Origin: Actinomycetota bacterium
Lineage (GTDB): Bacteria; Actinomycetota; Actinomycetes; UBA12327
Assembly (NCBI GenBank): GCA_026392555.1
Contig: JAPLBW010000028.1
Location: 1 to 35,778, forward strand
Direction of reading: 5' to 3'
Length of the DNA stretch: 35,778 nt
Shown: in pieces, positions 14,848 to 16,655 of the stretch
Layout: each line of letters starts with the position of its first letter
Numbering within the stretch: position 1 is the stretch's first letter
Notes under the pieces: generated by a model
Databases searched by the model: none
What the model was told of the DNA's origin: nothing
The model's input: only the letters and a program-made list of their open reading frames with translations
Program-made: the position numbers and the translations under genes

Positions 14848-15825
14848 ATGACCGCGGTGAGTGATCGCCAGAGCAGTGCAGCTAGCGAGCCCAGCGAATG
14901 GCAAAAGAAGATCGCGGGGGAATGGCATGGTCGTCCCGGTTTGTTTGATCCTGAGGGCAACCACGTCGGCTATGAGCGCATTGCGCGCGCCAGTGAGGTA
15001 TTGCCTGACGGCACCACGGTTTACTGGATGAATGGCACCTTGGACGGTTCCGGGCCACTGCGCAACCGTTTCCAACTCGGCGCCGACTTCCGCTTTGAAG
15101 TCATCGACTCCGATGAGAACCGCGTGTACATGGGTCCTGACTTTTATGGCACGGGTCAGCCCTACGGCTTGTTCGTTGATGCGCACTACTACTCACCCGG
15201 ATGGCAAGCCGACCTTCGTACATGGAACCAAGTCCTTCCGGACGGCAAGACCCAGGTTTACTCATCGGTCTTGCACGACGGCTGGAGCGTGTGCGCGGTA
15301 TTTAACGGCTTGTACAAGGTTGTTGATGTTGGCGCGAATGATCAAGAGACCCAAGGCTTCATTGATTCATGGATCCGGGACGAAACAGAGCGCGCGCCTC
15401 GCCCTCATGTCTTGCCAACCAAGCAAAAGGGTGCGTGGACCGGAACTCTTGAGGTCTATGACGCCGCCTCACGGGAGAAGGTAGGCGACAACTTCGTCAC
15501 CATCGACCATGAGCCTTTGTCGCTCGTACGTACCAAGCAGACGATCACCTGGGAAGGTGCTATCAACCGCAAGTACACTTTTGAGCGCTTGCGCCGCGAT
15601 CAAAACACGACCTATGACGGCCCGGACATCATGGGAAATGCGCGTAACTACGGACGTGCCTTATTCACGAGCCAGCACTTCACCGGTGGTGACGTGTGGA
15701 AGATTAAGGGACGCGAATACCTGCTCGATGACTCGCAGTCGTTGAGCATTGTGTGGGAAGCATTTAAGGGCGACATGCTCACTAACGTTATTTTCGGACA
15801 GCTGGATTGGAAGGCACAAGCATGA
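14848..15825 (+). CDS. conserved hypothetical two-domain protein (tandem paralog 2)
   Basis: 325 aa. Blocks shared with paralog 1 include SEWQKKI.GEWHGRP, VIDSDENR.Y.GPDF.G.GQPYG.FVD..YYS.GWQADL.TWN, KGAW.G..EV and KIKGRE. Confidence 0.6.
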   Translation: MTAVSDRQSSAASEPSEWQKKIAGEWHGRPGLFDPEGNHVGYERIARASEVLPDGTTVYWMNGTLDGSGPLRNRFQLGADFRFEVIDSDENRVYMGPDFYGTGQPYGLFVDAHYYSPGWQADLRTWNQVLPDGKTQVYSSVLHDGWSVCAVFNGLYKVVDVGANDQETQGFIDSWIRDETERAPRPHVLPTKQKGAWTGTLEVYDAASREKVGDNFVTIDHEPLSLVRTKQTITWEGAINRKYTFERLRRDQNTTYDGPDIMGNARNYGRALFTSQHFTGGDVWKIKGREYLLDDSQSLSIVWEAFKGDMLTNVIFGQLDWKAQA

Positions 15826-16655
15826 GCGAGAACCGTTCCGTCGTCGTCACTGGTGGAACCCGTGGCATTGGCCAAGGATTAGTGCGCGAATTCATCAAGG
15901 CGGGTTGCCGAGTCACGTTCACTGGATCCAGTGAGGCATCCACGGCCAAGGGTCTTGAGGCTCTCGGCGGAGCGTCAGCGAACTTGACTGCTACGGCATG
16001 CAACATCACGGACCGCGACCAAGTCCAAGCCGTATGGGATCACGCCGTTGCTACGTACGGTCGGGTAGACATCTGGATTAACAACGCGGGCATTTCGTTG
16101 CCGCGTAAGGCTTTTCAGGAGCACGCGGTTGCGGACTTGCAGGACATCGTCGACACCAACATCGTGGGAATCTTCAATGGTGATGCGGTGGCGATGAAGG
16201 GCATGTTGGCTCAAGGTTCTGGTTATATCTGGAACATGGAGGGCTTTGGTTCAAACGGTCAGACCAGTTCAGGCCTGGGTCCGTATGGCGCGACTAAGCG
16301 TGCGCTGAACTACCTCACCAAAGTGCTGATTAAGGAACTCAAGGGCACTGGCGTTGGCATGGGTTACCTCAGCCCCGGCATTGTCGCCACTGACTTGTTG
16401 ATCCAAGACTATGAAGACGATATGGAACAGTGGGAAAAGGTCAAGAAGACCTTCAACATCTTGGGTGACACGGTGGAGACGGTTACGCCTTACCTTGTTG
16501 AGGGTGTCTTGAAGACCGAGAAGAGTGGAAAGCGCGTGGCATGGCTGACTCCCGCAAAAGCTGGTGGCCGCTTCGCGACAGCCGGGTTCAAGAAGCGCAA
16601 CATCTTTGACCAGATTGACCCCCGCAAGACCATGGATCAGCAGGACGCCTCGTAG
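15822..16655 (+). CDS. short-chain dehydrogenase/reductase, chlorophyll(ide) b reductase (NOL/NYC1)-like
   Basis: The ATG at 15822 overlaps the upstream TGA (ATGA), with RBS GGAAGG. Motifs seen are VVVTGGTRGIGQG, VDIWINNAG, GYIWNMEGFGSNGQTSSGLGPYGATKRAL and LSPGIVATDLL. The N-x-[ED]G-x-GS-x-G...YGATK block matches my recollection of plant NOL (IFNIDGAGSDGRPTPRFAAYGATK; SPGMVTTDLL). Confidence 0.7.
   Translation: MSENRSVVVTGGTRGIGQGLVREFIKAGCRVTFTGSSEASTAKGLEALGGASANLTATACNITDRDQVQAVWDHAVATYGRVDIWINNAGISLPRKAFQEHAVADLQDIVDTNIVGIFNGDAVAMKGMLAQGSGYIWNMEGFGSNGQTSSGLGPYGATKRALNYLTKVLIKELKGTGVGMGYLSPGIVATDLLIQDYEDDMEQWEKVKKTFNILGDTVETVTPYLVEGVLKTEKSGKRVAWLTPAKAGGRFATAGFKKRNIFDQIDPRKTMDQQDAS

What the first reader, a model, noticed from the sequence alone, without database searches (positions are those of the whole stretch)
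15822..16655. SDR carrying the distinctive NOL/NYC1 (chlorophyll b reductase) active-site neighbourhood
Beyond the generic TGxxxGxG, NNAG and YxxxK motifs, this protein has W-N-M-E-G-F-G-S-N-G-x7-Y-G-A-T-K and LSPGIVATDLL. As far as I recall, the '[NI]-x-[DE]-G-x-GS-x-G ... YGATK ... SPGMV.TDLL' arrangement is characteristic of plant and cyanobacterial chlorophyll b reductase-type SDRs, not classical SDRs (which have S-x12-Y-x3-K with SS.AG). A 7-formyl or keto reduction on a tetrapyrrole would fit the cluster hypothesis.
Basis: partly seen in the sequence, partly recalled or inferred. Interest (0 to 1): 0.6.

Follow-up and report, generated by a model that had tools for sequence, protein, structure and literature searches.

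The report
Bacterial cousin of chlorophyll-b reductase
This gene encodes a short-chain reductase whose closest studied relatives are the plant enzymes that start chlorophyll b breakdown, and it is a fixed member of a conserved bacterial operon that probably digests chlorophyll-type pigments; but its signature motif is shared by a large bacterial family, so its real substrate is still unknown.

Summary

The NOL/NYC1 likeness is real homology:
- A NOL/NYC1 profile scores the protein at 201 bits, against 126 for the best NCBIfam SDR model.
- The alignment runs through a shared ~60-aa C-terminal extension.
- Other SDRs of the genome score 100 bits or less.

It is not a NOL/NYC1 orthologue. It sits in a bacterial sister family (support 100/98) that carries the same motifs across at least nine phyla, anaerobes included, usually with no pigment genes nearby. 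A second copy in this genome, in a housekeeping context, matches NOL equally well.

Within that family, the copies linked to the RCCR-like/Rieske/esterase operon form one clade (91/85) in Actinomycetota and Gammaproteobacteria. Their usual order is unknown-325 protein, SDR, then an Amdase-like gene.

Most likely it is an NADP(H)-dependent carbonyl reductase acting on a chlorophyll-derived intermediate. Strict chlorophyll b reductase activity is possible but not favoured: no HCAR was found, and the gene is a core operon member whatever the habitat.

A 2026 preprint on prokaryotic chlorophyll a breakdown omits this enzyme. This scan has already flagged the same cluster and NOL-like SDR on other genomes.

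The parts
15809..15814 (+). Shine-Dalgarno GGAAGG, 7 nt upstream of the ATG
   Evidence: Read directly from the sequence
15822..16655 (+). SDR gene, 277 aa (P0001). Its ATG overlaps the stop of the upstream unknown 325-aa gene (ATGA). Its TAG overlaps the GTG of the downstream membrane-protein gene.
   Evidence: Pfam adh_short E 3.8e-40
15849..15872 (+). Cofactor-binding motif T10-G-G-T-R14-G-I-G17. The basic R14 is invariant. There is no Asp at the end of beta-2, which fits NADP(H).
   Evidence: Alignments A1/A2; group profiles. Cofactor preference is inferred from SDR rules.
16080..16091 (+). NNAG motif (residues 87-90)
16230..16298 (+). Active-site loop W137-NMEGFGS144-NG-x8-Y155-GATK159. 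This is the NOL/NYC1-type signature, with Ser144 11 residues before Tyr155.
   Evidence: Invariant N138, G141, G143, S144, Y155, G156, K159 across the bacterial family and plant NOL; motif counts
16368..16400 (+). L183-SPGIVATDLL193 (PG motif plus TDLL)
16416..16433 (+). Bacterial-specific insertion of 4-6 residues (about residues 199-204, ...DDMEQW...) in the substrate-binding loop; absent from NOL/NYC1
   Evidence: Alignment A1; group profiles of 30 cluster-linked, 52 non-cluster and 22 eukaryotic sequences
16434..16607 (+). C-terminal extension (residues ~205-262) shared with NOL/NYC1. N212, L214, E219, V221, L225, G236, L242, T243, K246, A247 and F251 are invariant across the 24 aligned bacterial-family and plant NOL sequences.
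   Evidence: NOL/NYC1 profile aligns to residues 3-263; helices predicted with pLDDT mostly >85
14848..15825 (+). Upstream unknown 325-aa gene, translationally coupled to the SDR. A homologue lies directly upstream of the SDR in most actinobacterial clusters.
16655..17356 (+). Polytopic membrane protein (233 aa), coupled to the SDR stop; conserved after the SDR in several Actinomycetota
17368..18114 (+). Amdase/maleate-isomerase-like (Asp/Glu racemase superfamily) gene; the most constant downstream neighbour of the SDR
   Evidence: Pfam PF17645 E 1.6e-12; adjacent or next-but-one in 16 of 23 cluster loci
11662..13500 (+). RCCR-like gene (11662-12486) and alpha/beta hydrolase (12505-13500), which open the same plus-strand operon
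   Evidence: synteny
3152..4363 (-). Rieske/VanA_C oxygenase of the cluster. In other genomes it lies in the same operon as the SDR, and directly upstream of it in Halieaceae.

Best explanation
The gene encodes a soluble, probably NADP(H)-dependent, classical short-chain carbonyl reductase. It belongs to a bacterial sister family of the plant chlorophyll b reductases NOL/NYC1.

Its own subclade is a dedicated, co-translated component of a conserved catabolic operon. That operon holds RCCR-like and other FDBR-fold proteins, a Rieske oxygenase, an alpha/beta-hydrolase, unknown 325-aa proteins, this SDR, a membrane protein and an Amdase-like enzyme.

The operon most likely breaks down chlorophyll-type tetrapyrroles. 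The SDR most likely uses the N113/S144/Y155/K159 tetrad to reduce (or reversibly oxidise) one carbonyl of a chlorophyll-derived intermediate. Candidates are a pyrrole-bound formyl group (C7 of b-type pigments, or the formyl of the ring-opened catabolite) and the 13(1)-keto group of ring E.

Shown: the fold, motifs, family position, operon membership and synteny. Inferred: the cofactor, the substrate class and the direction of the reaction.
For: - Closeness to NOL/NYC1: a NOL/NYC1 profile scores P0001 at 200.8 bits over residues 3-263, while the genome's other SDRs outside this family score 100 or less. The best of 217 NCBIfam SDR models scores 125.8 bits. BLASTP against NOL gives 33% identity over 242 aa, E 7e-37.
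- Shared derived features: the loop N-x-[DE]-G-x-G-S...YGATK, SPGxVxTDLL and the C-terminal extension, with 11 invariant residues there.
- Careful ML tree: the NOL-like superclade is separated from three other own-genome SDRs at 97/94; the bacterial family has 100/98; the cluster-linked SDRs are monophyletic at 91/85.
- Synteny: 24 of 86 fetched loci carry the cluster, from Nocardioidaceae, Micromonosporaceae, Nocardiaceae, Streptosporangiaceae, Thermomonosporaceae, Acidimicrobiales, Halieaceae and Microbulbifer. The SDR sits in a fixed position in them.
- Translational coupling on both sides of the gene.
- All 8 genomes of this streamlined order keep RCCR-like genes, and 6 of 8 keep this SDR at 81-100% identity.
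- The preprint 10.64898/2026.03.19.712979 independently links RCCR/PAO/PPH homologues in the same actinobacterial families to chlorophyll a degradation. It shows chlorophyll loss by Shewanella acanthi, whose homologues lie within about 11 kb.
Against: - No activity has been measured for any member of the bacterial family.
- Identity to NOL is only 33-35%.
- The substrate loop differs: a 4-6 aa insertion, W137 for F, F142 for A.
- The same motifs occur in about 60 loci from Chloroflexota, Bacillota, Bacteroidota, Spirochaetota and others, with no cluster and no conserved context. The family therefore handles other substrates too.
- The housekeeping paralogue on contig C37 matches NOL as well or better.
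- The substrate of the whole operon is itself unproven; bilins or other compounds remain possible.
- The active-site loop is modelled at low confidence (pLDDT 64).
Confidence: 0.5

Rival explanations
1. It is a genuine chlorophyll(ide)/pheophorbide b reductase (EC 1.1.1.294-type). It reduces the 7-formyl group of b-type pigments with NADPH, so that chlorophyll b from plants and green algae can enter the bacterial PAO/RCCR-like pathway.
For: - NOL/NYC1 are the only characterised relatives and share the active-site loop, the PG/TDLL segment and the C-terminal tail.
- The operon contains homologues of later plant chlorophyll-breakdown enzymes.
- In plants, PAO does not accept b-type pigments (statement in PMC9306834), so a b-to-a funnel would be useful.
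Against: - The protein lies outside the NOL/NYC1 clade.
- No 7-hydroxymethyl-chlorophyll reductase (FrhB/HCAR domain) was found in the 86%-complete genome.
- The SDR is a core operon gene in marine, freshwater and soil lineages alike, although chlorophyll b is absent from many phototrophs.
- The nearest eukaryotic outgroup of NOL+NYC1 includes Cyanophora, a glaucophyte; glaucophytes lack chlorophyll b (the pigment statement is general knowledge).
- The substrate loop differs from NOL.
- Non-cluster family members in anaerobes carry the same motif.
Confidence: 0.17
2. It acts on a non-tetrapyrrole or late intermediate of the same pathway. Examples are oxidation of an alcohol made by the Rieske oxygenase, an alcohol/ketone step on monopyrrole- or maleimide-derived acids handled by the adjacent Amdase/maleate-isomerase-like enzyme, or phytol/phytenal oxidation after de-esterification.
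For: - The most constant neighbour is the Amdase-like gene, which belongs to a superfamily acting on small carboxylates.
- In Halieaceae the order is Rieske, SDR, Amdase-like.
- Several versions of the cluster add ACAD, aldehyde dehydrogenase, CN-hydrolase and isochorismatase-like genes typical of small-molecule steps.
- The wider SDR family evidently has non-pigment substrates.
Against: - No specific similarity to cis-dihydrodiol dehydrogenases or hydroxyacid dehydrogenases was seen. The top NCBIfam hits are generic and far below their cut-offs.
- The Rieske protein is of the VanA/PAO monooxygenase type, which does not make cis-diols (general knowledge).
- The closest characterised relatives act on an intact tetrapyrrole.
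Confidence: 0.28
3. It is a generic SDR that merely sits in the operon, with no dedicated role in the pathway.
For: SDRs are promiscuous and abundant. No curated family model reaches its cut-off.
Against: - Orthologues keep their place in the operon across two phyla and form one clade.
- The gene is translationally coupled on both sides.
- It is retained in 1.0-1.7 Mb streamlined genomes.
Confidence: 0.05

Closest known systems
Plant chlorophyll(ide) b reductases NOL (At5g04900-type) and NYC1 (EC 1.1.1.294)
   Same: - Classical SDR with TG[GS]T[KR]GIG and NNAG.
- Active-site loop N-x-[DE]-G-x-G-S-[DN]-G...Y-G-A-T-K with the same G-to-Y spacing.
- SPG[IM]VxTDLL.
- A C-terminal extension of about 60 aa with conserved N..L..E.V...L, LT..KA and F.
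- The highest profile score of any characterised family.
   Different: - Only 33-35% identity.
- Placed in a separate bacterial clade.
- No transit peptide or transmembrane domain.
- A 4-6 aa insertion after TDLL; W137 for F, F142 for A, L/M152 for Y/F.
- The host is a non-photosynthetic actinobacterium with no HCAR found.
- The function is untested.
Prokaryotic chlorophyll a degradation gene set proposed by Aliyu et al. 2026 (bioRxiv 10.64898/2026.03.19.712979): structural homologues of CLH, PPH, PAO and RCCR or SGR
   Same: - The same kind of genomes (Nocardioidaceae, Micromonosporaceae, Streptosporangiaceae and others).
- The same RCCR-like/PAO-like/hydrolase partners that flank this SDR.
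- Co-location within about 11 kb is reported for Shewanella acanthi.
   Different: The preprint deals with chlorophyll a only. It never mentions NOL, NYC1, SDRs or chlorophyll b in the main text, and its supplement has no 'dehydrogenase' or 'oxidoreductase'. The SDR, the unknown 325-aa proteins and the Amdase-like gene are therefore additional, undescribed operon members.
FabG-type 3-oxoacyl-ACP reductases and other classical SDRs with solved structures
   Same: Rossmann fold, a catalytic Asn/Ser/Tyr/Lys tetrad and probable NADP(H) use. These are the best PDB sequence and fold matches (3osu E 4e-23; TM about 0.75).
   Different: At most 26% identity in the Foldseek alignments. They lack the [DE]GxGS loop (they have xSS/xGS 13 residues before Tyr) and the C-terminal extension. 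The genome's own FabG-like SDRs score 100 bits or less on the NOL/NYC1 profile, against 201 for this protein.
Non-cluster bacterial members of the same SDR family (for example the paralogue at G000:C37:3084-3893, and copies in Chloroflexota, Bacillota, Bacteroidota and Spirochaetota)
   Same: The same motifs, the same C-terminal tail and the same loop insertion; one clade with 100/98 support.
   Different: 38-49% identity. Y/F instead of W at position 137. No RCCR, Rieske or hydrolase neighbours and no conserved context. Function unknown.

Membership tests
Classical SDR superfamily (Pfam PF00106 adh_short) | Profile match above the curated cut-off | tested here: met
   137.9 bits against a cut-off of 26.6, residues 7-196
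Classical SDR superfamily (Pfam PF00106 adh_short) | TGxxxGxG cofactor motif, NNAG, and the catalytic Asn-Ser-Tyr-Lys tetrad | tested here: met
   T10GGTRGIG17, N87NAG90, N113, S144, Y155, K159, all invariant in the family. The Ser lies 11 rather than 13 residues before the Tyr, as in NOL.
NOL/NYC1 chlorophyll b reductases | Active-site signature N-x-[DE]-G-x-G-S...Y-G-A-T-K and SPG[IM]VxTDLL | tested here: met
   Present in P0001, in 115-121 of 121 close homologues and in 117-120 of 120 plant NOL sequences
NOL/NYC1 chlorophyll b reductases | Shared C-terminal extension beyond the classical SDR core | tested here: met
   11 invariant residues between positions 212 and 251 across the 24 aligned bacterial-family and plant NOL sequences. 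The NOL/NYC1 profile aligns to residue 263.
NOL/NYC1 chlorophyll b reductases | Phylogenetic placement inside the NOL/NYC1 clade | tested here: not met
   Eukaryotic NOL+NYC1 form their own clade (100/94). P0001 lies in a separate bacterial family (100/98).
NOL/NYC1 chlorophyll b reductases | Reciprocal best hit with NOL | tested here: inconclusive
   NOL searched against the own genome gives the C37 paralogue at 112.1 bits and P0001 at 111.3 bits; the next SDR scores 68.5. The reverse search against a plant proteome could not be run.
   The same signature occurs in about 60 loci of at least nine bacterial phyla without pigment genes. A homologue also occurs in Cyanophora.
NOL/NYC1 chlorophyll b reductases | Works with 7-hydroxymethyl chlorophyll a reductase (HCAR) in a chlorophyll-b-containing organism | tested here: not met
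   No FrhB_FdhB_C (PF04432) match in the 86%-complete genome; the control search rang in 4 of 14 genomes. The host is a 1.5 Mb non-phototroph-like actinobacterium.
NOL/NYC1 chlorophyll b reductases | NADPH-dependent reduction of the 7-formyl group of chlorophyll(ide) b | not testable with these tools
   Needs an enzyme assay.
Cluster-linked bacterial NOL-like SDR clade (defined here) | Monophyly, plus adjacency to RCCR-like/FDBR, Rieske, alpha/beta-hydrolase, unknown-325 and Amdase-like genes | tested here: met
   Clade support 91/85, present in 92% of bootstrap trees. 24 cluster-bearing loci with conserved order.

The most novel reading that the evidence does not exclude
The SDR, the alpha/beta-hydrolase and the Amdase-like enzyme may together dismantle the isocyclic ring E of chlorophyll, which is a cyclic beta-keto ester. 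The steps would be methyl-ester hydrolysis, decarboxylation or epimerisation at C13(2) by the Asp/Glu-racemase-superfamily enzyme, and 13(1)-keto reduction by this NOL-like SDR. That would be a bacterial branch with no counterpart in the plant PAO/phyllobilin pathway. It would explain why the SDR-Amdase pair is a core part of the operon regardless of chlorophyll b.
Probability: 0.12. Interest if true: 0.75.

Novelty: new variant of a known kind. Interest (0 to 1): 0.5.

Why it matters
How heterotrophic bacteria dispose of the very large yearly turnover of chlorophyll is largely unknown. The first prokaryotic pathway proposal (a 2026 preprint) covers only homologues of CLH, PPH, SGR, PAO and RCCR.

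This SDR is a further, strictly conserved operon member, and its only characterised relatives act directly on a chlorophyll carbonyl. That gives a concrete, cheap experiment: express the protein and test a handful of pigments. The result would either extend the bacterial pathway to chlorophyll b or reveal a step absent from plants.

The work here also shows that the 'NOL signature' is a family mark of a broad, uncharacterised bacterial SDR family. This should temper automatic 'chlorophyll(ide) b reductase' annotations in metagenomes.

Tried and rejected
- PDB sequence search and Foldseek on a good AF2 model (pLDDT 87.8) returned only generic SDRs at 26% identity or less. They gave no functional discrimination.
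- NCBIfam: 217 SDR models matched, all far below their cut-offs.
- A conserved context for the non-cluster family members was sought and not found, apart from occasional tandem SDR paralogues.
One has an SGR homologue, on a different contig. It gives no support here.
- No SGR was found in the own genome, but the control search rang nowhere, so this is uninformative.
- I tried to reach the Shewanella acanthi orthologue with the last homologue search. The list was saturated by Halieaceae.
- A test for clusters without the SDR, using 200 evenly sampled genomes of the phylum, found no RCCR-like gene in any of them. Only the 8-genome order could be compared.
- SDRs in the flanks of the fetched loci were too few to serve as a broad outgroup. 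Outgroups are therefore limited to this genome's own SDRs. One of them (C148, branch length 4.9) is drawn into the family by long-branch attraction in the careful tree, although it lacks the motifs.
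Full report
**The observation**

The ORF 15822-16655 (+) is open and encodes 277 aa. The ATG at 15822 has a GGAAGG ribosome-binding site 7 nt upstream. It overlaps the TGA of the preceding unknown 325-aa gene (ATGA). The TAG stop overlaps the GTG of the next gene, a polytopic membrane protein. The gene is therefore translationally coupled on both sides, inside a plus-strand operon that starts with an RCCR-like gene at 11662.

- TGGTRGIG (residues 10-17)
- NNAG (87-90)
- L183-SPGIVATDLL193

Pfam assigns adh_short at E 3.8e-40. NCBIfam gives 217 SDR models, all far below their cut-offs; the best is 125.8 bits. 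The best PDB match is FabG at E 4e-23.

**Is the NOL/NYC1 resemblance real?**

I seeded a database search with a remembered NOL sequence and used only the real sequences it returned, such as Capsella, Cucumis, Lactuca and Dendrobium entries named 'chlorophyll(ide) b reductase NOL'.

- BLASTP of P0001 against the mature NOL-like P0125 gives 33% identity over 242 residues, E 7e-37. The alignment continues past the classical SDR core.
- In the multiple alignment, the bacterial family and plant NOL share invariant N138, G141, G143, S144, Y155, G156 and K159. They also share S184-P-G, V188 and T190. Eleven further invariant residues lie in a C-terminal extension: N212, L214, E219, V221, L225, G236, L242, T243, K246, A247 and F251.
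- Motif counts: [DE]GxGS occurs in 121/121 close homologues and in 117/120 plant NOL. It occurs in 0/9 other own-genome SDR-like frames scored; the C37 paralogue among them carries GGGS instead.
- tblastn of NOL against the whole 1.50 Mb genome (86% complete) gives two outstanding hits of 112.1 and 111.3 bits. The next SDR scores 68.5 bits.
- I built a profile from 43 eukaryotic NOL/NYC1-clade sequences. Names were verified for Cryptomeria NYC1 and for the Chlorella and Pleodorina chlorophyll b reductases. The profile scores P0001 at 200.8 bits over residues 3-263. The other SDRs of the genome outside this family score 100 bits or less.
- A full phmmer scan of 1.84 billion representatives with NOL finds 90,892 SDR-like proteins. 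Only 327 have E of 1e-30 or lower. Members of the window's family score up to 149-170 bits with NOL, which puts them in that top tier. P0001 itself scores 112 bits.

NOL/NYC1 is thus the closest characterised family.

**It is not a NOL/NYC1 orthologue, and the motif is not specific to chlorophyll b reductases**

Trees were built from the window family, the NOL-search representatives and the genome's own SDRs (two quick trees; one careful tree). The careful tree shows the following:
- The NOL-like superclade is separated from three other own-genome SDRs at 97/94.
- Eukaryotic NOL+NYC1 form one clade at 100/94. A Cyanophora homologue lies just outside it at 99/86.
- All bacterial sequences with the WNMEGxGS-type loop form a separate family at 100/98.

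A pattern scan of one genome per species returned 570 relatives, and I examined the best 80. They come from Actinomycetota, Pseudomonadota, Chloroflexota, Bacillota, Bacteroidota, Spirochaetota, Chlorobiota, Rhodothermota and others. They include obligate anaerobes.

About 60 of these loci have none of the cluster genes within 10 kb. They have no other conserved neighbour either.

The window's own genome has such a copy at C37:3084-3893, next to a gene that by eye resembles a CDP-alcohol phosphatidyltransferase and among membrane-protein genes. That copy matches NOL slightly better than P0001 does. A C37-type copy is conserved in 7 of the 8 genomes of the order.

So the second half of the refutation clause, that the motif is widespread outside NOL, is largely met. 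The signature marks a broad bacterial sister family of unknown function.

Compared with NOL/NYC1, bacterial members carry a 4-6 residue insertion after TDLL. They have F/L instead of A at position 142 and L/M instead of Y/F at position 152. The cluster-linked clade has an invariant W137, where non-cluster bacteria mostly have Y and eukaryotes have F.

**Operon membership**

Close relatives (81% identity) sit in the same gene set. So do Nocardioides at 59% and a Gram-negative contig with a TonB receptor at 53%.

Of 86 loci, 24 carry the cluster. Their SDRs form one clade, at 91/85 and in 92% of bootstrap trees.

Gene order:
- Most Actinomycetota: RCCR-like, alpha/beta-hydrolase, Rieske, FDBR-like, unknown-325/331, SDR, (membrane protein), Amdase-like.
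- Halieaceae: Rieske, SDR, Amdase-like.
- Acidimicrobiales: hydrolase, SDR.

The Amdase-like gene is the most constant neighbour of the SDR.

The window's order contains only eight species-level genomes of 1.0-2.5 Mb. All eight have RCCR-like genes, and six have this SDR at 81-100% identity. Retention in streamlined genomes argues for a real role. In a sample of 200 other genomes of the phylum, none has an RCCR-like gene, so the cluster is rare.

**Literature**

Full-text searches found no described bacterial NOL-type enzyme.

A lead in an earlier scan note pointed me to the preprint 'Chlorophyll a degradation in Prokaryotes' (10.64898/2026.03.19.712979). It predicts CLH, PPH, PAO and RCCR or SGR homologues. 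It finds RCCR-type gene sets mainly in Actinomycetota, among them Micromonosporaceae, Streptosporangiaceae and Nocardioidaceae. It shows chlorophyll a loss by Shewanella acanthi, whose homologues lie within about 11 kb.

The preprint mentions neither NOL/NYC1 nor any SDR or chlorophyll b. It supports the pigment-catabolic reading of the context, but leaves this gene undescribed.

**Mechanism**

Shown: a classical SDR with an intact Asn/Ser/Tyr/Lys tetrad, a NOL-type loop and C-terminal tail, and a good predicted fold (pLDDT 87.8, although the active-site loop reaches only about 64).

Inferred: NADP(H) preference. R14 in the Gly motif is invariant and there is no acidic residue after beta-2. 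The family consensus has the Arg of 'GRS', as NOL has 'SRS'; in the window's sublineage this Arg is replaced by Ser or Thr.

Inferred: the substrate is a carbonyl of a chlorophyll-derived intermediate. Three candidate carbonyls exist:
- The C7 formyl of b-type pigments, which is the NOL reaction.
- The formyl group created by ring opening.
- The 13(1)-keto group of ring E.

Two observations make a step common to all chlorophylls somewhat more likely than a chlorophyll-b-specific one. The SDR is a core operon gene in marine, freshwater and soil lineages, and no HCAR was found.

The constant pairing with an Asp/Glu-racemase-superfamily enzyme and an esterase suggests, speculatively, chemistry on the beta-keto ester of ring E.

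My odds:
- Tetrapyrrole carbonyl reductase of the operon, about 0.5. Strict chlorophyll b reductase is listed separately as a rival at about 0.17.
- Action on a downstream or non-tetrapyrrole intermediate, about 0.28.
- Passenger gene with no dedicated role, about 0.05.

**Verdict**

This is a new bacterial variant within the NOL/NYC1-like SDR lineage. It is embedded in an operon that this scan has already flagged in several other genomes (notes e1-2779007, e1-4702348, e1-4628266, e1-2841925, e1-4702346) and that a 2026 preprint partly anticipates.

Interest is moderate. The gene offers a direct biochemical test of an open question, but by itself it does not establish a function.

Noticed in passing
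G000 contig C37:3084-3893 (-), outside the window: A second NOL-like SDR (269 aa; NILGGGSDG...YGATK, with the same C-terminal tail) lies in a housekeeping context, by eye next to a CDP-alcohol phosphatidyltransferase-like gene, membrane-protein genes and a rhodanese-like gene. It matches NOL as well as the window gene does. A C37-type copy is conserved in 7 of the 8 genomes of the order.
   Followed up: partly
G000 contig C198:3311-3892 (+), outside the window: A third RCCR-like match (34% identity to the 7266-8078 protein, E 3.6e-33) lies on another contig. Similar extra copies occur in sister genomes G208 and G212.
   Followed up: no
window 17368-18114 (+): The Amdase/maleate-isomerase-like gene is the most constant neighbour of the SDR, adjacent or next-but-one in 16 of 23 cluster loci. 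This suggests the two enzymes act on consecutive steps.
   Followed up: partly
window 19567-22394 (-): The LivH-LivM-LivG-type fusion is one 951-aa ORF in the 81%-identical relative (L001). In the window it is split into 795-aa and 167-aa ORFs that overlap at 21891-21954. This looks like a frameshift or an assembly error.
   Followed up: no
G211:C1:385945-394680 (sister genus of the same family): A reduced version of the locus holds FDBR-like, RCCR-like, hydrolase, unknown-225 and SnoaL-like genes, without the Rieske or unknown-325 genes. The only nearby SDR match is about 40% identical and comes as two alignment pieces.
   Followed up: partly
L024 (Anaerolineae) and L056 (Rickettsiales MAG): The open frames that contain the non-cluster SDR homologue extend to 707 and 1008 residues upstream. 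They may be fusion proteins, or an artefact of extending the frame to the previous stop.
   Followed up: no
P0290 (Cyanophora paradoxa) in the tree: A glaucophyte homologue sits just outside NOL+NYC1. Glaucophytes lack chlorophyll b (general knowledge), so even the nearest eukaryotic relatives need not act on chlorophyll b.
   Followed up: no
Homologue list: The gammaproteobacterial branch of the cluster-linked SDR is very abundant in metagenomes. The named hits are dominated by Halieaceae/Halioglobus. One is annotated as FabG in Halioglobus japonicus.
   Followed up: no
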